Virus genome (UHGV): UHGV-0100572
Length of the DNA stretch: 11,708 bases
Source: a virus
Direction: 5' to 3' (one strand)
The notes beneath the pieces were generated by a model, which made no database searches, was not told the origin of the DNA, and was given only the letters and a program-made list of their open reading frames with translations. A program made the position numbers and the translations under genes. Below, one piece after another: positions 1-10,562 of the stretch (the stretch's first letter is position 1; each line of letters starts with the position of its first letter).

Positions 1-170
1 TCAGCACGATTATGAACGAGCACGAATGGCCTGCTGACGCTATTGAAGTGCAACTGGCACATGCCAACGGCGGATCTGTGCGTGGGATTTACAACCATGC
101 TCAGTATCTCGATAAACGCAGAGAAATGATGCAGTGGTGGGCTGACTGGATTGATGAAAAGGTGGAGTGA
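1..170 (+). CDS. int: Tyrosine recombinase (phage integrase), C-terminal fragment; 5' end lies outside the window
   Basis: Reading frame entering the window at base 3 translates to ...EWPADAIEVQLAHANGGSVRGIYNHAQYLDKRREMMQWWADWIDEKVE and stops at TGA 168-170. The H...R...Y-x-H pattern resembles the catalytic-tyrosine C-terminus of tyrosine integrases. Assignment is from motif memory only. Confidence 0.6.
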   Translation, partial: STIMNEHEWPADAIEVQLAHANGGSVRGIYNHAQYLDKRREMMQWWADWIDEKVE

Positions 171-260: not shown

Positions 261-2822
261 TTATATTTTCTTAATATTATTAATGCACCAACGGAGATAT
301 GCGCACTCTAATACAAGCGCCTCGTCATATCGTATCCCATAGCGATTACCAGCCTTATTTTTAAGTCGTAATTCTCCTGTTTCATATATCTTCTCTATTT
401 GTTCTCCAAATTCATTCACCTCAATTTTTGAGGAAAAAACAGGCTCATAGCTATCATCCCATTCATCGTAACAAAGAATTCCATATGCAAATGGGTCTAT
501 TCCTTCTGATTCAAAGGCTTCTTTTACTCTCTGAGCAATAACTCCGAAATGTATCCTTGCTTTGTCCCCTTTCTCTTTTACAGCATCGGTAAACTTATAC
601 TGCATAAAATTGACTTTACCCCATGCCTTTAAAATCTCCTCAGGAATCTCCTCTTTTTCTATTTTGGCGCGTTCATCAGATGTGTTAATGCTTCCTGTCG
701 AAGCATAAACTTGATTCCAACGTTTCTCAGGTATTCCACAGTTCCCGCCAGAATCATCTGTTGGATAAATATGTTTTCCTGATACTGCATTGCCATCGCT
801 TGTAACCATGAATTTTGTGTTTCCGGATATGCTCTGAACCTGAAAACTAGCATCAGTTTGCGCAAGAATAGATCCTGCAGGCGCTCTCTTAATTCTCGCA
901 TAATTAGGATTGTCAATTGAACCAAGAAGAATTTGTGATTCCTGTTGTGTTGATTCAGATAGTATTCGTAAATCTCCAAATGGCAATTTGGTATTGCTTC
1001 GAGAATCTGCAGAGTTAAACAACATTGTGTCGCCGTAGCGAAGTGTTGTGTATGTCAGAGCAAATGGAGCATGAGACTCGATAATCTCCATTAGCCTGTG
1101 ATTTGTAGTGGCACACAAACCAAAAAATGTATTACTTGTCTGATTAGATGTTATTGGCGTGCCATCTCTCATCCTTACCTTAAACGGGTTTTCTATCATG
1201 CACCCCAAAAATGTATCCCGTGCAGAACGGTCAATTCTCACGCAAAAAGGAGCATCGCTCTGGAATCTGGTTCCTATATAACGATGTCCGTGTATAGCTT
1301 TGCTTACATTTCCTCCCAACCCGTCAATATTAAAAGCTCCGCCTACATCCCAATCAGTTAATGGGTCAGGAGAAGTTTTCATATCAACAAGTCTGCGCTT
1401 GGTATGATGATTAGCCCCAAATATTTGACTATTTATGATAACAAAATCAGAAAATCCACCGGCTCCACGATCATCTGGAATAAGTTTATTTTCTACAGGA
1501 TCATAATAATTTTCATATCCTTCCGGAGCATATGAGTCATGCCCAGGAGCAGGAGAAGCACCAAAGACATTTACCCCCCATAAACCACCAGATGTAAACA
1601 CACGATCAAGAATGCAACCATCACTACCATCACCCCAAATACCTCGTGGATATGAATTACCAGTTCGATAGCTTTTAAATCTACCTGCACCAGAAGGTTG
1701 AGTAACATCGAACCAAATATTTGCTTTTCGATGGTATCCAATAACTGCAATATCAATAAGTTGAGTATTACAACGGCATCCATTAAAAATACCGACATCC
1801 CAATCAGCACCCAAGTTGTCAATGCTGTCTGTGTATTCACCATCAGGGCCACTTTCTGGCGGGTAAACTTTTGTTCTCACTGCAAAGTGCTCTAGCTGAA
1901 CGCCTTCTGCTTGAATATTAATATTTACCGAAATTGCCTCATCCTGAGCATCACCAGAACCTGAGCGATACTTCCGTCTGGTACGTATCCTTTTTGTGCC
2001 AGTACCAACAAACATTAATGTTGAGCAATCAACCCAATTAAATACTGGCCCGATATAATGAGGAACGATACTCCCATTTTCACTATATTGATTAAGTGCC
2101 TGATATCCATATCCCCTCCCGGAACCAATAATTCTTTGACCATGAGTTAGTAGTTCCAGTTCAAGATCACAAATAAATACTCCCTCCGTCAGATAAATAT
2201 GCTTTCCTGTATCAAGAGCAGCTTGTATTGCGAGGCCGTCAATAGATTGTTCCAGTGAAGTAGCAAATGGATAAACCACCCTGGCTAATGATAGAGAAGA
2301 AAATTTCTCTGATAGTTTATGTAATGTCCCGTCACCTATAGCACCGAAATCTCTGATACTTACAAAATCTAGGTTTTTTGAATGTTGACTTCGTTGTATT
2401 GCTCCAGCAAGTGGTTGCTTAATAAATACATTAGAGTCATCAACTAATTGACCAGAGTTTTCATGTTGAAGGAGATGTCGCAGTTGATCGGGGTCATACT
2501 TCAGCACATTCTGGAAATAGAACTGCTGTACGCCATACGCATCGTACACAGCCATAGAATGACCTTGCACAGTTACGAACTTGGCAATCTGTCCGTTATA
2601 TACCGGATATCCAGCAGCGTTAATGATGATTGGTTGCGAAACAGGAACGTGAGAACCGTCTTCGTTCTCCACATAAACCTGAATCTGGTTTTCAGGATTT
2701 ACAGGGTCAGTGTCAATTTTGCCGATATAAATTTTGCCATTGGCTACGGCTTTAAAAGAACGTGCCATAGTGAAGAGTTGCGAAGGCATCGATACGATCA
2801 CATTGGCTGTAATGTCTGTCAT
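261..2822 (-). CDS. Tailspike protein: P22 gp9-like N-terminal head-binding domain, beta-helix depolymerase-like receptor-binding domain, C-terminal peptidase-S74-type intramolecular chaperone domain
   Basis: 853-aa ORF with ATG at 2822-2820 and GGAG 8 nt upstream. Residues 1-113 (MTDITANV...KYDPDQ) closely match the P22 tailspike head-binding domain as I recall it. A DFGAIGDG motif typical of pectate-lyase-fold beta-helix depolymerases lies near residue 160. The C-terminus has a TSDERAK motif (S715/D716) like the auto-cleavage site of endosialidase-type chaperone domains. Confidence 0.9.
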
Positions 2823-2922: not shown

Positions 2923-3825
2923 TCAGTAGTTATGTACTGAAGGAGGTAATTCTTTATTCTTAAGTCTCATCCATGCGGAAAGATTCGTTGGTCCGTCTGG
3001 CTCATTAATATCAACATCTCGTGTATGGTTGATTAAAACATCTCTCGCCATTCCGATAACATACGAGAACTCATGACCGTAGTCGTAGCATCTGCCGGAA
3101 TAGTTCGATTGAATTTGTTTTAATGCCGGATACAGTTCGCGGAATAATGCCTGTGAGCGGTTGGCATAATCCCATAACCATACAAGGCTGTTTGCTTCTT
3201 TTGCAGAAAGCTCGTTTGCTTTCTTCTCTTGCTTGCCGATGAACTCACCTTCAAGCACTACCCTGTGGATGTACTCTACTGCTTGCGGTATCTGAGATGC
3301 ATCAAGCTCTTCAATACTTTCCACATTGAAACGCTGATGAATCATTGCATAAGCTTCTGGGTACATTAGATGCTTTTTGCTGACCAGCATATTTACAGCA
3401 TCACGAAGCGGAGTCCTGTCATCAACAGATGTTTTCTTACGTGCATTTTCTGCCTTTCCCTTCGTCCAGTAGTCATGCAGCACAGTAAAGCATTCTTCCT
3501 GGTACTGAATCAGTTTATCACGGATGTCAGCACGAACTTTCTCAGGGTTGATGCTGAACAGCCATCCATTTAACTTCTTCAAAGGAAGGCAGAGTAGCTT
3601 ACGAAGCTTACCATCAGCGGCAACCATGTTCATATGAACACAGTTGAATTTGCTAATCTGCTTCATGAGTTTTGTTTGCTGCGTTGACCAGCTCATTCCG
3701 AGGTTTTCAACGATTGGCTTCATCGCAACATATGCAACTCCGGCAGCCATGGCGGTGATAATTTGCTGACCGTTGAATGGCACGTAAGAGGTGTTCACTG
3801 CTTCTAAAATTGCTATACTATTCAT
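2923..3825 (-). CDS. ant: Antirepressor Ant (P22 immI antirepressor family)
   Basis: 300 aa from ATG 3825-3823 ([22 protein letters not shown]...), with GGAG 10 nt upstream. The N-terminus matches P22 Ant as I recall it. The ORF-track start at 3855 is a TTG adding 10 residues and is less likely. Gene order arc-ant-tailspike is as in P22. Confidence 0.85.
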
Positions 3826-3896
3826 GTTGGTTTTTCTCCAAGGATTTACCGACAACCGAAGCCCTAACTGTTACCGCAGTTGGGGCTTCAACTTTT
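3826..3896 (+). ncRNA. sar: Candidate sar-like antisense RNA covering the ant ribosome-binding site
   Basis: Extended -10-like TGcTATACT at 3811-3819 on the plus strand, inside the first ant codons. About 60-70 nt downstream is a hairpin (3858-3868 pairs with 3879-3889, one G-U pair) followed by aacuuuu. The predicted transcript is antisense to the ant GGAG and start codon. P22 encodes a 68-69 nt sar RNA at the equivalent place. Confidence 0.4.
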
Positions 3897-4112
3897 CACT
3901 TCTTTAAAGTGCCTACCTTCTACAGTTGCTCTGAGATAAAAATTCTTATCTTTACCGTTTAGTGCTTCCCAAGCATCAACAATGCACTTATTACAGATGT
4001 GGACTTCTCGATAACCAATAGCTTTCCTGTCAATATTAGTGAACATAACAGCTTCTTTATCTGTCAATGTGGATGCATGACAGAAGTCGCAATCTATATA
4101 AGATACCTTCAT
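3888..4112 (-). CDS. Small hypothetical protein with two CxxC pairs (zinc-ribbon-like), inserted between arc and ant
   Basis: 74-aa ORF. Its ATG (4112-4110) overlaps the arc stop as ATGA. A GAGGGG Shine-Dalgarno lies about 8 nt upstream. CDFC at residues 8-11 and CNKC at 40-43. I do not recall a gene at this position in P22. Confidence 0.5.
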   Translation of the reverse strand: MKVSYIDCDFCHASTLTDKEAVMFTNIDRKAIGYREVHICNKCIVDAWEALNGKDKNFYLRATVEGRHFKEVKS

Positions 4113-4267
4113 ACCGTTATCCCCTCTCTCTTCAGGCTGTCCATCACTCGCTTGTAAATCTCAGAGTTAACAGATCGCCCGTTCTCTTCCGCCACCTTAC
4201 GCACCAAATCCAATACTTCTTTAGGCCACCGCAAATTGAACTGCGGCATTTTGCTCATTCCTTTCAT
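4109..4267 (-). CDS. arc: Arc repressor (ribbon-helix-helix)
   Basis: ATG at 4267-4265 gives MKGMSKMPQFNLRWPKEVLDLVRKVAEENGRSVNSEIYKRVMDSLKREGITV (52 aa), near-identical to P22 Arc as recalled. GAGGTG Shine-Dalgarno upstream. The longer 73-aa ORF in the track begins at an ATG inside the Arc operator. Confidence 0.9.
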   Translation of the reverse strand: MKGMSKMPQFNLRWPKEVLDLVRKVAEENGRSVNSEIYKRVMDSLKREGITV

Positions 4268-4283
4268 ATTCACCTCACAATAT

Positions 4284-4300
4284 AGGTCCACCGTGGACCT
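4284..4300. promoter_or_regulatory. Mnt operator (Omnt)
   Basis: 17-bp palindrome aggtccaccgtggacct, matching the P22 Mnt operator as I recall it (AGGTCCACGGTGGACCT, central base inverted). It covers the predicted Pant transcription start. Confidence 0.85.
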
Positions 4301-4301
4301 A

Positions 4302-4330
4302 TTGAGAATATAGTAGAGTGCTTCTATCAT
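4302..4330 (+). promoter_or_regulatory. Candidate Pmnt promoter, divergent from and overlapping Pant
   Basis: Plus strand ttgaga (4302-4307), 17-nt spacer, tatcat (4325-4330), 27 nt upstream of the mnt ATG. Hexamers are weaker than Pant; placement by analogy with P22. Confidence 0.35.
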
Positions 4331-4335
4331 GTCAA
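4307..4335 (-). promoter_or_regulatory. Pant promoter driving arc, the small CxxC ORF and ant
   Basis: Minus strand reads TTGACA (4335-4330), a 17-nt spacer, then TATATT (4312-4307). That is a consensus -35 with near-consensus -10 at ideal spacing. Confidence 0.7.
4310..4330. promoter_or_regulatory. Arc operator (Oarc)
   Basis: atagtagagtgcttctatcat is the reverse complement of the 21-bp P22 Arc operator ATGATAGAAGCACTCTACTAT as recalled. It sits between the -35 and -10 of Pant. Confidence 0.85.
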
Positions 4336-4357: not shown

Positions 4358-4612
4358 ATGGCTAGAGACGATCCGCACTTTAACTTCCGTATGCCTTTGG
4401 AAGTAAGAGAAAAATTGAAATTAAGAGCAGAGGCTAACGGAAGGTCAATGAACTCTGAGTTATTACAAATCGTTCAGGATGCTCTCTCAAAGCCATCATC
4501 AATTGTAGGCTATCGAGACGAAGCTGAGCGAGTCGCGGATGAGCAATCTGACGTTGTTAAGAAGATGGTCTTTGAAACGCTGAAAAATATTTATAGCAAA
4601 AGTAAGTTATAG
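4358..4612 (+). CDS. mnt: Mnt repressor (maintenance of lysogeny, represses Pant)
   Basis: 84 aa, MARDDPHFNFRMPLEVREKLKLRAEANGRSMNSELLQIVQDALSK..., near-identical to P22 Mnt as recalled. Divergent from arc with the two operators between. Confidence 0.9.
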   Translation: MARDDPHFNFRMPLEVREKLKLRAEANGRSMNSELLQIVQDALSKPSSIVGYRDEAERVADEQSDVVKKMVFETLKNIYSKSKL

Positions 4613-4661: not shown

Positions 4662-5381
4662 ATGAAAAAAAGCAATGGACTCACATTAAAACTTGACGGA
4701 ACCACCCCTGGCCAGCTGTCAATGGCTAAGTTGGTCAAGTATATGTCTGCTCTCGTAGATCTATACGGTTCTGCAGATTCTGTTCACTTCGACTGTGTAA
4801 GTGAAGGATCGGCTGACTTAAATGCATGGGTCGATAATGATATTTGTTATAACGCTGTCATAGCAAGGGCCTCTCTCTCAGCCAAAGAGAAATCACCCGC
4901 GTATCAAAAAATTGTTAATTTACTGGAACATGATGGTTTTTCAGCGAAACTACTCGGACGAAACCACTCAACCATTATCGCATTCCCGCGAGTAAAAAAG
5001 GAGCCAATCCCTTTACTCATAACAAAAACGTCAGAAGTTCAAGGAAGGCTATACAGTGTTGGCGGAAAAGACAACTCAATACCTGTGCGTATTGAGGGAG
5101 CCAACGGTGAAACATTCAAGTGCGAGGCAACCCCTGATTTGGCGGCAGCTCTTGGGTCCCATCTATTCAAATATATTAGGGTTAAAGGAGATGGGTGCTG
5201 GGAAAAAAAGAACAACAAATGGGAGCTAAAGAAACTAAAAATAACTTCATTTGTATTGCTCAAAAAATCATCACTCAAGGATGCTATTAATGCTATCAAG
5301 CAAGTTCCTGGAGATCAGTGGTCCGAGGAACGCGATGTTGATTCAATCCTTAGGACTCTGAGGAAGATAAATTGCGAGTAA
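4662..5381 (+). CDS. Hypothetical protein, 239 aa; upstream partner of the PIN-domain gene
   Basis: ATG-initiated ORF 49 bp after mnt. No recognisable motif (no Walker A, no hydrophobic segments). Its last 10 nt overlap the next ORF. AT-rich relative to the flanking late genes, by eye. Confidence 0.65.
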   Translation: MKKSNGLTLKLDGTTPGQLSMAKLVKYMSALVDLYGSADSVHFDCVSEGSADLNAWVDNDICYNAVIARASLSAKEKSPAYQKIVNLLEHDGFSAKLLGRNHSTIIAFPRVKKEPIPLLITKTSEVQGRLYSVGGKDNSIPVRIEGANGETFKCEATPDLAAALGSHLFKYIRVKGDGCWEKKNNKWELKKLKITSFVLLKKSSLKDAINAIKQVPGDQWSEERDVDSILRTLRKINCE

Positions 5382-5920
5382 TTTTAGATACCAATATTCT
5401 GGTATACCTACTATCAGATATAGAACACGATTATAGATTATCTGACCCTATACTTGGTTCTGAGATTCCAGATGCCAAAAGAAGAGCAGAAGCTCTTGTT
5501 GATCGAATAGATAACAAGAACGGGACAATCATCGTTCCAACTCCTGTATTGGCGGAGTTTTTAGTTGGAATCCATAAAGATTACCAACAAGAAAAACTGA
5601 ATGTTATCAAATCGTTATCGTGCTTCGAGACTGTATCATTTGATGAGTTGGCTGCTATTGAATGCGCATCGATACCAACATTAAAAGAATTAAGGAAAAT
5701 TAGCACAGAAGGTACAGCAAATAAAATTAAGTTTGACAGACAAATAATAGCAATTGCAAGAGCAATTAATGCTGACGAGGTATGGACTCATGATAAGGGA
5801 GTGTTTGAGCGTTGCAAAAGTCTCAATATTCCTGTGTTCACATTGTCATCAATAGAACCAATTCCGGTTCAAAGTCTCATGGAGTTCTTACACGATTCAG
5901 ACGATCAGAGATTACACTAA
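5372..5920 (+). CDS. PIN-domain protein (VapC-like putative ribonuclease), 182 aa
   Basis: N-terminus MRVILDTNILVYLL with the hallmark acidic residue at position 6. Further candidate acidic residues in VLAEFL and NADEVWTHDKG. TTG start at 5372 preceded by GAGGAAG with a 5-nt spacer. There is no in-frame ATG that would preserve the PIN N-terminus. Confidence 0.7.
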   Translation: MRVILDTNILVYLLSDIEHDYRLSDPILGSEIPDAKRRAEALVDRIDNKNGTIIVPTPVLAEFLVGIHKDYQQEKLNVIKSLSCFETVSFDELAAIECASIPTLKELRKISTEGTANKIKFDRQIIAIARAINADEVWTHDKGVFERCKSLNIPVFTLSSIEPIPVQSLMEFLHDSDDQRLH

Positions 5921-5935
5921 AATATAATTTTTATG

Positions 5936-5964
5936 CATCCGTGATAATTACATCCGTCACGGAT
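5936..5964. promoter_or_regulatory. Inverted-repeat and palindrome cluster upstream of the third cassette gene; candidate operator
   Basis: atccgtga (5937-5944) and tcacggat (5957-5964) are inverted repeats. atccgtcacggat (5952-5964) is a 13-bp palindrome. The motif CATCCGT occurs at 5936 and 5951, and again at 6478 downstream of the gene. Confidence 0.3.
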
Positions 5965-5984
5965 ACATAAAGCTATAGCCAAAA

Positions 5985-6470
5985 GTGGACAAACCTTTAT
6001 CTCACTCCAAACCATCTGGTATCCTGCGTAAAACTAAGGAGGTTGGTGTGTTTGGTATATTAACGAGAAGCAAGATAAAAAAATTAAGGGCAGAACTCGC
6101 CGAAACACAAAAACTGGCTTCACATTTTTACAAAATGAAATACGACGCTGAAGAGCGTGCATTTGTTGAGTTATGCGATTTATCTATTCGTATGGGAGTA
6201 GAGCCAGATGTAGCGGCAAAAACCCAACAAGGCATTGATATACTTGCAGATGTTGTTTTAAACAGGCAATATGCGTTTTATCTAAACGAGAAGGCCATTC
6301 AGATTTACTCTCAAATCTTCCTCCTAGAAAAAAGAAGAGGAACTCACGATCGAGAAGAGTGGTTAAATGAAGTTGTTAAAAAATCTGGCTGGGAAGTTGT
6401 TTCATCAGAGCTACCTCTTATTTGTGCTGATTTAATCGAAGAGGCAAAAGAGCGCCTATCCGATGGCTAA
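5985..6470 (+). CDS. Hypothetical protein, 140-161 aa depending on start
   Basis: ORF track starts at GTG 5985. An in-frame GTG at 6048 has a strong AAGGAGG Shine-Dalgarno 5 nt upstream and is the more likely start (6048-6470). No recognisable motif and no transmembrane segment. Stop at 6468-6470, 25 bp from the convergent gp16 stop. Confidence 0.6.
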   Translation: MDKPLSHSKPSGILRKTKEVGVFGILTRSKIKKLRAELAETQKLASHFYKMKYDAEERAFVELCDLSIRMGVEPDVAAKTQQGIDILADVVLNRQYAFYLNEKAIQIYSQIFLLEKRRGTHDREEWLNEVVKKSGWEVVSSELPLICADLIEEAKERLSDG

Positions 6471-6494: not shown

Positions 6495-8603
6495 TTACTC
6501 CCGCTCCATTCCGCTTAGCGATGCCACAATCCCACCCCTCGCTAAGCGCTGAAACTCTTCGTTTCCGACGGTATCACGTATCGCTTTTACAGCAGCTTTA
6601 TTTGCCATAAATCTGCGTTCAGCCGCCGCTAATGCACCATCACTTGCCCCAACCTTAACTGCCTTTGTTGCCTCTTGAACAGCCTTTTCAATAGCGTAAC
6701 GACCACTGCGGGATGCAGCTAACTTTTCTATCGTCCCTTTAGCTATAGATCCAGAAACAGCCCCCACAACACCGCCAACAATCCCTCCACCAGTGGTACC
6801 AACAATAGCCCCTGATGTTGAATTGCCTATTGCATTGAGAACTGTCATGACAGCTTTTGGCAGTCCTTGCTCAAGAGAGTTAATTGCCGGTATAGAGCGC
6901 CCCGTATGCTCTACATATCGCAGTGGTCTGGTTGCTGCTCTGGCAAGGTCGCTGTATGCCCTAGCAATCTTACCCATTTCTGGCGAGTGCTTGCTAATGG
7001 CAGTAATATTCTGCGGCGTAAGGATCGACGCTATATGGAATACGCCAGCAGACTCTGATTTACCGCCACGCACCCCTTGCGATACCGCATCTTGTAATAT
7101 TGATGCAATTGCTGGAGATCGCTCAGACTCTGGCAGTGCGCCAATAATCTGATGAAACTTTCCTGTCCCACTTTTTGATGAATTTTGCAAGGCTTTAATA
7201 CCATCAGTGACTAACTGATCAGTTGCAAGGTTTCTAAACGCTGCTTCAGCCTGTTCTTGTGCTGTAAATCTTGCTTTTGACAGATCATTAGCTTTTTGCC
7301 AGTCATCAAGAAAACCGCCATTTTGAGCCATTATGCGCATATCTTCCGTTGCTGCATCACGAAGCTCCGCCATGCGCCTTGCCGTATTTGCCTCACCAGA
7401 CCTTATATACTTCTGCTCAGCGTCAGCAAGTTTACTTCGCCATGCCTTCATGGCATCAAACGTGATTCCTTTTTTACCAGTTTTAGCATAAGCCGATGCA
7501 AATTGTTTCATCTCAGGAGTTAGCGGCATACCAGCCAAAATATCACCCTGAATTGTAGCGTTCAGGTTTGACATTCTGGCCTTTGCGTCAGGCATCGTGG
7601 AGCGTACGCTATCCCATGCTGCCTTTTCTGAGTTCTTCATTTTATCAATACTTGCTAAAACCCTTTGTTTTATGGCTGCACTTTTTTCTGATGCAGATCC
7701 AGCCTCAGCACCAAGTTCATCAAGTGCTGAGTGGAATTTCGACTGTATTTCACTAAAAGCCCTAGTATGTGCATCCTGAACAATTCCTGGTTCGGATGCC
7801 AATATCCCTTCGGCTTGTGCAATTCCACGACTTCCAGATCGCATTCCTGGTGTTAATGCGTTTATATCAATTCCAGCAGACTCAGCCGCTTTTGCTACAT
7901 CTTCGGACACATTAGCGGCCTGACTGGCAATTGACTGACGCCCAGCACCTGACTTTGCCATCCTGGAAACATCATTAGCAGAATTCAGTGCTGCACCACC
8001 AAGAGCCTGTGAAACCCTTGGCGCAATAACGCGCCCGACACCTGAAAGAACGCCTTGAGCACCAATATTGATACCACCGTTAATGGCAGCATTTTGTGCA
8101 AAGTCGCCCTCCTGATTTGCAGCATCAGCAAGAGAACCTGCAATCATGTTTCCTGCGGAACCGATATCTCCAACGAGCTTTGCTGGCGCTCCAGCAGCTT
8201 TTGCCGCTGTGCCAATTGGCAGGAGATACCCACCAATTGTTTCACCGGCTTGCGCGTAAGGGTCTGTCGGTCGATCGACGGGGCGATAAACATCATCCAA
8301 AACCTTGGGGCCACCAAGCCCCTGGCTGATTGCATTAATCAGACTTGCGCCACCCTGCAATACGTCAAATGGTATGTTTACCAGACCACGACCAGCCTGT
8401 TCTGCAATTTGCCCTGCACTTTGACCACCAGTGAGCCAGTCAGTAGCTTTTCCTACCAGAGATTGTTCGTCTGGCTGCGATTGGTTTTGAGTGGATTGAT
8501 CACCAGAAGACAGCATCTGAGCAATGCGACGTGCTCCCTCAGTATCGCCAGCAGCATCAGCATTCCTTAACGCCGTCATCAACTGTTCGCGACTATAGGC
8601 CAT
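6495..8603 (-). CDS. 16: Ejection (DNA transfer) protein, P22 gp16 family
   Basis: 702 aa, [29 protein letters not shown]..., Gly/Ala-rich as in P22 gp16. ATG 8603-8601 overlaps the upstream stop as TAATG. Last gene of the gp7-gp20-gp16 order. Confidence 0.85.
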
Positions 8604-9859
8604 TACTGCCCTCCGAGATATTTATTAATCAGATCGTCATCAGAAAGCTGCTGTTGCGGTGGCTGATATCCAGATGCTGATAACTTAGCATCAAGCTTCG
8701 ATGCAATCGCGTTAAGGCGTTTTTTTACTCCCTCTGTGCTTCCTTTGATGCCGTTTTCTGTGATGTTAAGTCCTGATGCAATATTTCCAAGAAAAGTAAT
8801 ATCGCGATCAGTTAAAACACCACTCATTAACTTCAGATTATCCTGTGTTAATAGCGACTGAAGCCTGCTTGCCTTGTTTATCAAATCTTGACTTGAATCC
8901 TGAAACGTTGGAATTCTTGAAGAAATCGAACCTGTAATATTTCCAAGGCTATCATCAGAGGCTATTTCTCTCGCAAGAGTAGCCGCCTCAGCCGCATAAC
9001 CCAGCGACATTTGTTTTTGTTGCTGGACATCTTGCTGCTTCTGCTGATTTTCCTGAAGCTTCATGTTTAGGTTACTGATTTCAGCTTCTGTTTTAGCTTG
9101 ATCTAAGCGATTTGAGATAACTTTTTGCTGGAGAAGAAGTTTTTGCAACTCTCTGTCAGCGGCAGAATTAGCCGCGCTAATATTCTGCCCTCTAATCGCT
9201 CTCGCATTCGTCATGTCATTATTGCGAATGGTTTCGTTAATCTTTTGCTGCTCCTGCTGACGACCAATCATCTTATCCTGATAATCCAGCATTTTATCCG
9301 GGCCAACAGCCCCTAGCGTCATAGTGGTCAGCATGTGTGATAGCTGCTCGGGATTCTGGATACCTGTCTGAATCATCCAGTCAGCATTAGCACCCACGCG
9401 ATTTAACCTGTCCTTGTTGTCAGTAATGAATTTACTGTAGGCTTCCGGTCCCTGAGAAAGAGCGACGTTAGCCCTCATGGCTAAATCGCCCATATCGTTG
9501 CGTTGCTGCTCATTAAGACCGGAAAACGCCTGTTGTGCCTGCGCAACAAACGCTGGATTTTCCTTGGCAAACTTAAATAGTCCCGATGGATCACCAGAAG
9601 CCCATGCATCAGCATGAACCTTATTGAACGCATTAATCGCTTTCTGTTGCTGTTCCTGCTTATAAATATCAGCAACTCCAGCCAGACCACGTAACGCGGT
9701 CAGACCAACGTTATTTGCACCTGAGCGAGCCAACTCATTGTTTTCGCGAATCAGACCAAGCGTTGCGTTAATGTCGCTTGCCTTTGGTGCATTCTCATTT
9801 TGCGTACCAATGCCAGCCAGAAAACCGCCAGAATTAATACCCTGTTGCCACGTAGCCAT
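8603..9859 (-). CDS. 20: Ejection protein, P22 gp20 family
   Basis: 418 aa, ATG at 9859-9857 with AAGGG Shine-Dalgarno 7 nt upstream. Lies between the gp7 and gp16 homologues as in the P22 late operon. Gln-rich coiled-coil-like central region. Confidence 0.8.
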
Positions 9860-9869
9860 TGATTAACCC

Positions 9870-10562
9870 TTAAAACAGTGAACCAAGCAGACCAAGACCA
9901 GCACCAATACCAGCCCCCCACGGAGTTGATAGCTCGAGAGCACTGGCTATGCCACCACCCAAAAGCGCACCGGATGCAGCACCACTAACACCCTGCTGCA
10001 ATGCTGACGGTCGGTTGGCGTTTGCCGCCGCCAGTGCTGCGCTTTGCTGCGAAATCTGACTCATGTTGTTGGCATATGTTTGCCCGGCGTTTGCCTGTCC
10101 CTGAAGAGCGCCAAGACCGATATTTGCCAGGTTGTTGTAATTGTTCATTTGTCCAGATAGCCATTGCTGACCAAGCGTTGGTGCGATTGTTGCTAACTGA
10201 TTACCGGTTGCAGTGGAACCCAATCCACCTGTTGCTTCCGCTGCCGCCAGACTCTGATAGCGAGCCTGACCAGCAAGATCTTTGTACTGCTGAGAGTTGT
10301 AATACTGGTTAAGCGCCTGACCTTGCCCTTCCAGAGACGATAAGTTCTCGAGGCTGCCGAGATACTTATCAGCCAGAGGAGTAAACGGCTTCAGGTTGTT
10401 CATGATGGTGTTGAACTGCTTATTCTGCAGGTCTGCGGCATACTTCTGAGCTTCTGCGGCATACTTTGCGCTTTTATCAGAGCTGCCACCTTTCCCGCCT
10501 TTTTCAGGGCAATAAGGTTCCTCGCCGCGCAGTTTTCTGCCCAGCTTAAATGCATATAACAT
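9870..10562 (-). CDS. 7: Ejection protein, P22 gp7 family
   Basis: 230 aa, MLYAFKLGRKLRGEEPYCPEKGGKGGS..., matching the P22 gp7 N-terminus as recalled (P22 gp7 is 229 aa). Gly/Ala-rich C-terminus. Confidence 0.85.
   Translation of the reverse strand: MLYAFKLGRKLRGEEPYCPEKGGKGGSSDKSAKYAAEAQKYAADLQNKQFNTIMNNLKPFTPLADKYLGSLENLSSLEGQGQALNQYYNSQQYKDLAGQARYQSLAAAEATGGLGSTATGNQLATIAPTLGQQWLSGQMNNYNNLANIGLGALQGQANAGQTYANNMSQISQQSAALAAANANRPSALQQGVSGAASGALLGGGIASALELSTPWGAGIGAGLGLLGSLF

What the first reader, a model, noticed from the sequence alone, without database searches (positions are those of the whole stretch)
4662..5920. Overlapping two-gene unit: unknown 239-aa protein plus TTG-initiated PIN-domain nuclease
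The PIN gene starts at TTG 5372, 10 nt inside the end of the upstream gene, with a good GAGGAAG Shine-Dalgarno 5 nt upstream. That arrangement implies translational coupling and fixed stoichiometry, as in toxin-antitoxin or sensor-effector pairs. The upstream partner is large (239 aa) and soluble-looking, unlike a typical small antitoxin, so a sensor or regulator role is plausible. The PIN protein has a C-terminal extension beyond a minimal VapC-sized domain. I cannot map the pair to any named system from memory.
Basis: partly seen in the sequence, partly recalled or inferred. Interest (0 to 1): 0.8.

Follow-up and report, generated by a model that had tools for sequence, protein, structure and literature searches.

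The report
Prophage repressor-linked PIN nuclease gene pair
A P22-like E. coli prophage carries, where phage P22 has its exclusion gene sieA, a tightly coupled gene pair (an uncharacterised RNA/DNA-binding-type protein plus a PIN nuclease) from a large unstudied family that usually sits just after prophage repressor genes, so it is most likely an untested anti-phage or toxin module.

Summary
Gene A (4662-5381, 239 aa) and a PIN gene (TTG 5372-5920, 182 aa) overlap by 10 nt, with GAGGAAG 5 nt before the TTG.

The window is the immI region of a P22-like E. coli prophage. The pair follows mnt and replaces P22's orf59a/sieA.

The second protein is a PIN domain (Pfam E=4e-10). Its four acidic residues, D6, E62, D122 and D141, are invariant.

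Gene A matches no Pfam, NCBIfam or PADLOC model. Its model shows a ferredoxin-like domain, an OB fold and a low-confidence C-terminal tail carrying a near-invariant Arg.

In 63 of 63 loci examined, A is followed directly by the PIN gene. The weak start is conserved: TTG in 31 of 39 distinct PIN genes.

In 37 of 58 distinct contexts a co-oriented prophage repressor (Mnt, CI or HTH) lies just upstream. The A family spans 1591 clusters at 50% identity. It is rare on plasmids.

The exact PIN protein is listed as a predicted, untested defence gene by DefensePredictor. It is unrelated to that paper's validated PIN system DS-5.

Best reading: a lysogen-expressed PIN effector restrained or guided by a sensor-like partner, acting in phage exclusion. 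A plain toxin-antitoxin role is not excluded. No function has been tested.

The parts
4282..4335 (.). Divergent, overlapping promoter-like sites: Pant-like at 4335->4307 on the - strand and Pmnt-like at 4302->4330 on the + strand. A perfect 10+10 palindrome (4282-4302) lies beside them and is a likely operator. This is the probable transcription start region for mnt, A and PIN.
   Evidence: Consensus scan gives 11/12 and 10/12 matches. Palindrome I3. P22 has the same layout of Pant, Pmnt and operators. Function is inferred, not shown.
4358..4612 (+). mnt-like maintenance repressor gene (84 aa), directly upstream of gene A and co-oriented with it.
   Evidence: Pfam Arc E=6e-27 and Repressor_Mnt E=5e-13. 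85% DNA identity to P22 mnt.
4662..5381 (+). Gene A (239 aa, pI 9.15), the uncharacterised partner protein. It has a ferredoxin-like domain (aa 1-112, nt 4662-4997), an OB-fold barrel (aa ~118-199, nt ~5013-5258) and a low-confidence helical tail (aa ~205-237). The tail carries W220 and R234.
5360..5366 (+). Shine-Dalgarno sequence GAGGAAG for the PIN gene, lying inside the 3' end of gene A.
   Evidence: Read from the sequence. A GAGG/AGGG motif occupies the same position in homologous junctions.
5372..5920 (+). PIN-domain nuclease gene (182 aa, pI 5.1). It starts at TTG and overlaps gene A by 10 nt (5372-5381).
   Evidence: Pfam PIN E=4e-10, above the cutoff. Invariant D6, E62, D122 and D141. 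PGAP uses the same start. TTG is conserved in 31 of 39 distinct homologues. PHROG 21691. No solved relative by sequence.
5930..5971 (+). Strong hairpin 10 nt after the PIN stop codon (15-nt arms, 12-nt loop). It is the probable 3' end or terminator of the mnt-A-PIN transcript, though it lacks a T-run.
   Evidence: Inverted repeat I2, 93% complementary. Predicted RNA fold -20.4 kcal/mol, z = -5.45. Most homologous modules have a canonical GC hairpin plus T-run at the same place.
6048..6470 (+). Neighbouring 140-aa gene (GTG start, Shine-Dalgarno AAGGAGG at 6035-6041). It is not part of the pair: it is facultative and its function is unknown.
   Evidence: PGAP start. No family hit. It is absent from loci that keep the pair (L002, L015, L016) and present in L017.

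Best explanation
The pair is a self-contained, horizontally mobile cassette carried mainly by temperate phages. In the lysogen it is probably transcribed together with the prophage's maintenance repressor: here from Pmnt through mnt, A and PIN to the hairpin at 5930-5971.

The PIN protein is the effector, a metal-dependent nuclease and most likely an RNase like VapC. Its translation is kept low and tied to that of A by the conserved TTG start, the Shine-Dalgarno sequence inside A and the overlapping junction.

A is the stoichiometric partner. Its ferredoxin-like and OB-fold domains are folds typical of nucleic-acid binding and probably act as the sensor or targeting part. Its flexible basic C-terminal tail, with the near-invariant R234, probably binds the acidic PIN protein.

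In the resting lysogen the complex is harmless. On superinfection, a phage nucleic acid or protein engages A and the PIN nuclease cuts RNA. This blocks the incoming phage through abortive infection or exclusion.

Shown: the anatomy, the PIN identity, the co-conservation, the conserved weak start, the predicted folds and the recurrent position next to repressor genes.

Inferred: co-transcription, the A-PIN contact through the tail, the substrate, the trigger and the defence phenotype.
For: Context.
- The cassette occupies the slot that holds orf59a and the superinfection-exclusion gene sieA in P22, between mnt and gene 16.
- Of 58 distinct contexts, 37 have a co-oriented prophage repressor just upstream: Mnt 13, CI (HTH_3 + Peptidase_S24) 20, HTH-only 4. 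Several of the remaining contexts are cut by contig ends.
- The isolated temperate Pseudomonas phage Ostro has the order CI, A, 'nuclease'.
- Other sites are typical extra-gene (moron) or island sites: beside DinI-like genes, integrase genes, Mrr-type restriction genes, Fic genes and IS elements.

Transcription unit.
- No terminator-like site lies between mnt and A.
- A terminator or hairpin lies directly after the PIN gene in the window and in most homologous modules.

Effector.
- The PIN domain has four invariant acidic residues.

Coupling.
- PIN follows A in 63 of 63 loci, and the TTG/GTG start and the junction are conserved.

Partner.
- A is folded, basic (pI 9.15) and combines a ferredoxin-like domain with an OB fold.
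- The conserved OB residues in the wide family are Gly, Trp and Arg. The tail residue R234 is kept in 97% of representatives.

Independent prediction and precedent.
- DefensePredictor lists this exact PIN protein (WP_001263856.1) among its predicted uncharacterised defence proteins, with log-odds about 6.8 against a strict cutoff of 4.
- The same paper showed that another E. coli pair of a PIN protein and an accessory protein (DS-5) defends against phage and is not a toxin-antitoxin system.

Distribution.
- The family is rare on plasmids: 8 of 72,556 records, none among the E. coli plasmids. This argues against a plasmid-addiction role.
Against: - No experiment exists for this family.
- DefensePredictor's overall validation rate was only 45%, and gene A itself was not found in the stored, truncated tables.
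- PADLOC has no model for either protein.
- The A-PIN contact and the role of the tail are inferred from low pLDDT and conservation only. I could not run a complex prediction.
- OB and ferredoxin-like folds are generic and also mediate protein-protein contacts.
- The same architecture (upstream partner, weakly translated PIN toxin) fits an ordinary type II toxin-antitoxin module.
- Co-transcription with mnt rests on consensus scans only.
- The window's hairpin lacks a T-run.
Confidence: 0.5

Rival explanations
1. The pair is an ordinary type II toxin-antitoxin (VapBC-like) module with an unusually large antitoxin. A simply neutralises the PIN toxin. The module's role is to stabilise the prophage (killing or arresting cells that lose it) or it is purely selfish, with no specific phage sensing.
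For: - The order is partner first, PIN second, with a tight junction and a weak toxin start that ensures excess partner.
- Databases name many homologues 'type II toxin-antitoxin system VapC family toxin'.
- PIN toxins are known to pair with many unrelated antitoxin folds (PMC10440598).
- A has a low-confidence C-terminal tail with a conserved Arg, like the toxin-binding tails of VapB and FitA (the FitA comparison is from general knowledge).
Against: - A has no RHH, AbrB, HTH or Phd DNA-binding domain and is larger than the toxin and well folded.
- NCBIfam VapC models score far below their cutoffs: 27 bits against 140.
- The family is almost absent from plasmids, where addiction modules are common.
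- The repeated placement behind prophage repressors in slots that hold exclusion genes (sieA here) points to a lysogen-benefit function.
- A toxin-antitoxin module can also be a defence system, so this reading overlaps with the best explanation.
Confidence: 0.27
2. A and PIN form a constitutively assembled targeting nuclease. A uses its OB and ferredoxin-like domains to recruit the PIN nuclease to a particular nucleic acid, for example incoming phage single-stranded DNA, phage transcripts or a specific tRNA. Both proteins are needed for activity, and A is not an inhibitor.
For: - The OB fold is most similar to ssDNA-binding proteins and to the anticodon-binding domains of class IIb aminoacyl-tRNA synthetases.
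- A is basic, and the OB residues conserved across the family are Trp and Arg.
- DS-5 is a precedent in which the accessory protein is required and the PIN protein alone is not toxic.
Against: - The conserved weak TTG start of the nuclease and the excess of partner suggest that the nuclease has to be kept in check.
- No binding data exist.
Confidence: 0.15
3. The pair serves the phage's own lytic development, for example host RNA degradation or nucleic-acid processing, rather than the lysogen.
For: - Some family members lie among structural genes: between tail genes in L062 and between tail and protease genes of a Mu-like phage in L064.
Against: - In the window the pair runs opposite to the late genes and in the same direction as mnt.
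- In most loci it follows the lysogenic repressor.
- It is a facultative cassette, present in only 33 of 5426 complete E. coli genomes and swapped between P22-like prophages with different tailspikes and ejection proteins. It is therefore not a core phage function.
Confidence: 0.05

Closest known systems
VapBC type II toxin-antitoxin systems (PIN toxin VapC with antitoxin VapB; for example FitAB)
   Same: - The effector is a PIN domain with the four acidic residues.
- The partner gene comes first and is tightly coupled to the toxin gene.
- The partner probably neutralises the toxin through a C-terminal tail.
- The likely activity is RNA cleavage.
   Different: - The partner is 239 aa, with a ferredoxin-like domain and an OB fold, and has no RHH, AbrB, HTH or Phd DNA-binding domain.
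- The PIN protein belongs to a separate subfamily. It has an apparent extra segment after strand 1 and a C-terminal tail, scores far below the VapC model cutoffs and has no solved relative by sequence.
- The module usually sits in a prophage repressor operon rather than being self-regulated.
DS-5 of DefensePredictor (E. coli: WP_021513008.1, a DUF5830/AcrIF4-like protein, plus WP_021513009.1, a PIN protein)
   Same: - It is a two-gene E. coli system of an accessory protein followed by a PIN nuclease.
- PIN catalytic residues are required for defence.
- The accessory protein is required and the system does not behave as a toxin-antitoxin pair (PMC13092281).
   Different: - There is no sequence relationship. 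The two PIN proteins share only the N-terminal 'V(I/V)LDTNIL' motif (BLASTP E=0.16). The accessory proteins are unrelated (hhalign probability 0.1%).
- The DS-5 PIN protein is 376 aa and its partner is a 166-aa zinc-ribbon-type protein.
Lysogen-expressed exclusion genes in prophage immunity regions: P22 sieA (same slot) and lambda rexAB (downstream of cI)
   Same: - The genomic logic is the same: a facultative gene set placed next to, and co-oriented with, the maintenance repressor, so that it is made in the lysogen.
- In the window the pair occupies the physical position of P22 orf59a/sieA.
   Different: - There is no homology.
- By general knowledge, SieA and RexB are membrane proteins. A and PIN have no membrane-protein features and look soluble, and the effector here is a nuclease.
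PHROG 19868 and PHROG 21691
   Same: Gene A matches phrog_19868 over its full length (E=4e-123) and the PIN protein matches phrog_21691 (E=4e-76). Both proteins are therefore already clustered as phage protein families.
   Different: Both PHROGs are labelled 'unknown function', and nothing in that library links them as a pair.

Membership tests
PIN domain nucleases (Pfam PF01850) | Sequence match to the PIN profile above the curated cutoff | tested here: met
   40.8 bits against a cutoff of 23.6, E=4e-10.
PIN domain nucleases (Pfam PF01850) | Conserved acidic residues that hold the metal ion (three or four Asp/Glu) | tested here: met
   D6, E62, D122 and D141 are invariant in 42 homologues down to 30% identity.
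PIN domain nucleases (Pfam PF01850) | PIN three-dimensional fold and nuclease activity | not tested
No biochemical data exist.
VapBC type II toxin-antitoxin system | The toxin matches curated VapC family models | tested here: not met
   NF047863 scores 27.1 bits against a cutoff of 140. TIGR00028 scores 19.9 bits against 73.6.
VapBC type II toxin-antitoxin system | A small upstream antitoxin with an N-terminal DNA-binding domain (RHH, AbrB, HTH or Phd) | tested here: not met
   A is 239 aa with no Pfam or NCBIfam hit at all. Its predicted folds are ferredoxin-like plus OB.
VapBC type II toxin-antitoxin system | The toxin is toxic alone and is neutralised by direct binding of the partner | not testable with these tools
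   This needs expression and rescue assays and pull-down experiments. There is only indirect support: a conserved weak TTG start, a conserved tail Arg and opposite pI values.
DS-5 (DefensePredictor) | Homology of both proteins to WP_021513008.1 and WP_021513009.1 | tested here: not met
   BLASTP E=0.16 over 8 residues only. hhalign probability 0.1%.
Known anti-phage defence systems (PADLOC-DB v2.0.0) | Match of either protein to any defence-system model | tested here: not met
   No families at E<=0.1 for A, the PIN protein, the third gene or Mnt.
Anti-phage defence system (generic) | Protection against phage when expressed in a naive host | not testable with these tools
   The only support is a machine-learning prediction for the exact PIN protein (log-odds about 6.8) and the genomic context.
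Prophage lysogenic-conversion / moron cassette | A facultative gene set in a temperate phage genome, co-oriented with lysogeny genes, bounded by its own terminator and found in otherwise different phages | tested here: met
   - 45 IMG/VR viral contigs carry it.
- It follows Mnt, CI or an HTH repressor in 37 of 58 contexts.
- A terminator or hairpin follows the PIN gene.
- The same cassette at >=99% identity occurs in P22-like prophages with different tailspikes, ejection proteins and integration sites.
- It is absent from P22 itself.

The most novel reading that the evidence does not exclude
The A-PIN pair is the founding member of a large, undescribed family of prophage-borne abortive-infection systems. 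The partner protein, a ferredoxin-like domain plus an OB fold, would directly sense a nucleic-acid product of phage infection (single-stranded DNA or a structured RNA). It would then release a PIN RNase that it otherwise holds inactive with a C-terminal Arg-bearing tail. The cassette would be a common replacement for sieA- or rexAB-type exclusion genes behind prophage repressors across Proteobacteria.
Probability: 0.3. Interest if true: 0.7.

Novelty: new variant of a known kind. Interest (0 to 1): 0.58.

Why it matters
PIN nucleases paired with a restraining partner are a well-known kind of module. This partner, however, has no described family, and the pairing is conserved across at least 1591 sequence clusters.

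The module's habitual place, directly behind Mnt or CI repressor genes and in P22's sieA slot, makes it a strong and easily testable candidate for a common way in which prophages protect their hosts from other phages.

It occurs in clinical E. coli, including ST131-type genomes, as well as in Salmonella, Pantoea, Pectobacterium and Pseudomonas. It could therefore affect phage therapy host ranges.

The conserved TTG start is a clean handle for testing how dosage of a toxic effector is controlled.

If A proves to be a nucleic-acid sensor, it would add a new sensor type to bacterial immunity.

Tried and rejected
- Named defence systems. PADLOC gave no hit. NCBIfam gave only sub-threshold VapC hits.
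- DS-5 of DefensePredictor looked like the same thing (accessory protein plus PIN in E. coli). Direct comparison showed no relationship.
- Pfam for gene A and for eight divergent or longer relatives gave nothing. No fused domain gives a clue.
- A profile search of PDB sequences with the PIN family gave no hit, even at E<=1.
- The afdb50 library was not available.
- Literature. No paper holds the two RefSeq accessions in its main text. No paper in the library links a PIN domain with superinfection exclusion, a repressor and a prophage. Papers on RexAB in P. putida and on NetFlax do not describe this pair. Brenes & Laub 2025 (E. coli prophage defence systems) is not held, so I could not check whether it tested this cassette.
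- Plasmid-addiction idea. tblastn found only 8 distant matches in 72,556 plasmids.
- The third gene (6048-6470) as part of the system was rejected. It is missing from several loci that keep the pair, and a hairpin or terminator separates it from the PIN gene.
- The ORFs on the opposite strand inside the pair (for example 5039-5299) were taken as spurious. The + strand genes are conserved as proteins across the family.
Full report
**What the window is**

The 11.7-kb window is the right arm of a P22-like prophage of E. coli. On the minus strand it carries:
- a tailspike gene (261-2822)
- an Ant antirepressor gene (2923-3855; Pfam P22_AR_N/C)
- a 74-aa ORF (3888-4112)
- an Arc gene (4109-4330)
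- the three DNA-ejection genes corresponding to P22 genes 16, 20 and 7 (6495-8603, 8603-9859, 9870-10562)

On the plus strand, between arc and the gene-16 homologue, lie four genes: an Mnt-like repressor gene (4358-4612; Pfam Arc and Repressor_Mnt), the two genes of the finding, and a further ORF.

Identical DNA (99.9%) occurs in chromosomes of E. coli from humans, wastewater and a dog. RefSeq annotates the same gene boundaries there, including the TTG start of the PIN gene.

In P22 itself the interval between mnt and gene 16 holds orf59a, the mnt terminator, the sieA promoter and sieA, the superinfection-exclusion gene. The pair under study therefore replaces sieA.

**The observation**

- Gene A runs from ATG 4662 to 5381 (239 aa).
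- The PIN gene runs from TTG 5372 to 5920 (182 aa).
- The overlap is 10 nt.
- GAGGAAG lies at 5360-5366, five bases before the TTG.
- An in-frame stop lies six codons before the TTG with no other start codon between. A later start would remove the first catalytic aspartate.

The second protein matches Pfam PIN above the curated cutoff (E=4e-10). In an alignment of 42 homologues reaching 30% identity, D6, E62, D122 and D141 are invariant.

Two details need correcting.
- In 'NADEVWTHD' only the last D is conserved.
- Judged from the alignment and the partial Pfam match (residues 36-147), the protein's extra length comes from a segment after the first strand as well as a C-terminal tail. I did not model the PIN structure.

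**Is the pairing real?**

I collected loci in four ways:
- by exact-protein look-up of A homologues
- by look-up of distant PIN homologues
- by a scan of IMG/VR with the A alignment (45 viral contigs)
- from one distant representative

Profile searches of all stop-to-stop frames showed that in all 63 loci with an A homologue (62 fetched loci plus the window), the PIN gene follows directly on the same strand.

This holds for very distant pairs as well.
- Marinobacterium: A is 28% identical (E=2e-24).
- Binatia: hhalign probability 99.9%.
- A phage with Neisseria-type uptake-sequence terminators.
- A Mu-like phage: the PIN protein gives hhalign probability 99.9%.

Among 39 distinct PIN genes the start codon aligned with the window's TTG is TTG in 31, GTG in 3 and ATG in 1. 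Of the other four, two use an ATG one codon downstream and two are the distant L062/L063 pair, which starts at GTG. The junction is a 10-nt overlap in 20 and a 1- or 2-nt gap in 14. A GAGG/AGGG motif sits upstream in each.

A weak start codon kept across about 45% protein identity, from Enterobacterales to Pseudomonas, is strong evidence of two things: that this start is used, and that low, coupled synthesis of the nuclease is under selection.

**Limits of the unit**

Most homologous modules have a canonical terminator, a GC hairpin plus a T-run, directly after the PIN stop codon.

The window has a strong hairpin at 5930-5971 (-20.4 kcal/mol, z = -5.45) but no T-run.

The next gene (GTG 6048-6470, with its own AAGGAGG) is absent from several loci that keep the pair. 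It is a separate facultative gene.

Upstream, consensus scans find the divergent Pant- and Pmnt-like promoters at 4302-4335 and no terminator-like site between mnt and A. Transcription of mnt, A and PIN as one unit is therefore likely, but it is inferred.

**What gene A is**

A matches nothing in Pfam, NCBIfam or PADLOC. Its only match is PHROG 19868, of unknown function.

With a 36-sequence alignment, AlphaFold gives a confident model (mean pLDDT 85). The model has three parts:
- an alpha/beta domain (residues 1-108)
- a five-stranded barrel (118-199)
- C-terminal helices of low confidence (205-237)

A is basic (pI 9.15) and the PIN protein is acidic (pI 5.1).

An exhaustive profile search finds 1591 clusters at 50% identity (824 at E<=1e-10). 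Nearly all of the 150 best matches listed are 220-260 aa long and match along almost their whole length. Eight divergent or longer relatives have no Pfam domain either.

In 143 divergent representatives the best-kept residues fall in three groups:
- N-domain: P16, Y27, G36, H42, G49, S50, D91
- OB fold: G128, G134, G135, R173, G176, W180, W187
- tail: W220 and R234 (97%)

**Where the cassette lives**

Of 58 distinct contexts, 37 have a co-oriented prophage repressor gene just upstream: Mnt in 13, CI-type (HTH_3 + Peptidase_S24) in 20, and a 128-aa HTH_3 protein in 4. Ten of these were checked against Pfam, and the rest were assigned by similarity to those. Several of the remaining contexts are cut by contig ends.

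The isolated temperate Pseudomonas phage Ostro shows the order Cro-like, CI-like, A, 'nuclease'.

Other sites are also typical of cargo genes:
- beside DinI-like genes
- next to an integrase fragment in P. aeruginosa
- beside an Mrr-type restriction gene in Marinobacterium
- beside a Fic gene and IS elements in Pectobacterium
- beside an IS1595 element in Binatia

In E. coli the module is present, always intact and at >=99% identity, in 33 of 5426 complete genomes. It is always chromosomal and never on a plasmid. It sits in P22-like prophages that differ in tailspike, ejection proteins and integration site.

Across PLSDB only 8 distant matches exist in 72,556 plasmids.

**What is known**

The only literature trace I found is the DefensePredictor paper (PMC13092281). 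The exact PIN protein WP_001263856.1 appears in its Table S10 of predicted, uncharacterised defence proteins, with log-odds about 6.8. The strict cutoff is 4, and the overall experimental validation rate was 45%. This protein was not among the systems tested.

That paper validated a different PIN pair, DS-5, in which the accessory protein is required and the system is not a toxin-antitoxin pair. I compared both DS-5 proteins with the window's proteins and they are unrelated.

I could not read Brenes & Laub 2025 on E. coli prophage defence systems.

**Interpretation**

The firm conclusions are these:
- The pair is a real, co-inherited, translationally coupled two-gene cassette.
- Its effector has an intact PIN active site.
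- Its partner belongs to a large family without a description.
- Temperate phages carry it mainly in positions expressed with the lysogenic repressor.

The most likely function is protection of the lysogen against other phages. A would act both as the restraint on the nuclease, through its tail, and as the sensing or targeting subunit, through its OB and ferredoxin-like domains. The PIN protein would cut RNA once it is triggered. I give this about 0.5.

There are three rival readings:
- An ordinary toxin-antitoxin role with an unusual antitoxin (about 0.27). This overlaps with the defence reading.
- A constitutively assembled targeting nuclease, in which A recruits rather than inhibits (about 0.15).
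- A lytic-cycle function (about 0.05). The orientation and the facultative distribution make this unlikely.

None of these can be settled without experiments. The decisive ones are listed separately.

**Verdict**

It is a new variant of a known kind: a PIN effector with a novel partner and a distinctive link to prophage repressor genes. It has been flagged by a machine-learning screen but has not been described or tested.

Interest is moderate to fairly high (0.58). The family is large, the context is telling and the hypotheses are directly testable. The effector class, however, is familiar, and no phenotype is known.

Noticed in passing
window 3888-4112 (-): A 74-aa Cys-rich ORF sits between arc and ant. 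It has a weak, sub-threshold hit to the ClpX C4 zinc finger and is annotated as hypothetical in RefSeq. P22 has no gene here; its sar antisense RNA region lies between arc and ant.
   Followed up: partly
window 6048-6470 (+): A 140-aa gene with a GTG start and a strong Shine-Dalgarno sequence (AAGGAGG, 6035-6041) lies between the PIN hairpin and the gene-16 homologue. It has no hit in Pfam, PHROGs, NCBIfam or PADLOC. It is present in some P22-like prophages that carry the pair and absent from others. It is another unknown cargo gene in the sieA slot.
   Followed up: partly
window 4282-4302: A perfect palindrome, ATAGGTCCAC-G-GTGGACCTAT, lies next to the overlapping divergent promoter-like sites (Pant-like 4335->4307, Pmnt-like 4302->4330). 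It is probably the Mnt or Arc operator of this immI variant.
   Followed up: no
window 5930-5971: A strong hairpin follows the PIN gene (15-nt arms, -20.4 kcal/mol, z = -5.45) but has no T-run. Most related modules have a canonical intrinsic terminator at this position. It may be a Rho-dependent or RNA-stabilising end, or a recombination boundary of the cassette.
   Followed up: partly
window 12-170 (+) and 261-2822 (-): The window begins with the 3' end of an integrase-like ORF, followed by the tailspike gene, so it reaches the prophage end. The tailspike, the ejection proteins and the integration site (near dacD/sbmC or at tRNA-Arg/yfdC) differ between E. coli prophages that share the identical A-PIN cassette. 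This shows mosaic exchange of the cassette.
   Followed up: partly
L001 10852-12021: In E. coli Ecol_AZ146 an ISEc52 (IS3-family) element interrupts the gene-20 homologue of the otherwise identical prophage. That prophage is probably defective but still keeps the A-PIN pair intact.
   Followed up: no
L062 3722-3800 and L063 4711-4790: The distant A-PIN pair in these viral contigs is followed by an inverted repeat of GCCGTCTGAA, which resembles the Neisseria DNA uptake sequence used as a terminator. Together with the Kingella potus protein and plasmid hits, this places the family in phages of Neisseriaceae as well.
   Followed up: no
L064 1867-3338: In a Mu-like phage contig the pair lies between a tail gene (Phage_tail_S) and the Mu-like protease gene, among structural genes. 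Its PIN protein is longer (239 aa). This context differs from the repressor-linked one and could mean a different expression time.
   Followed up: partly
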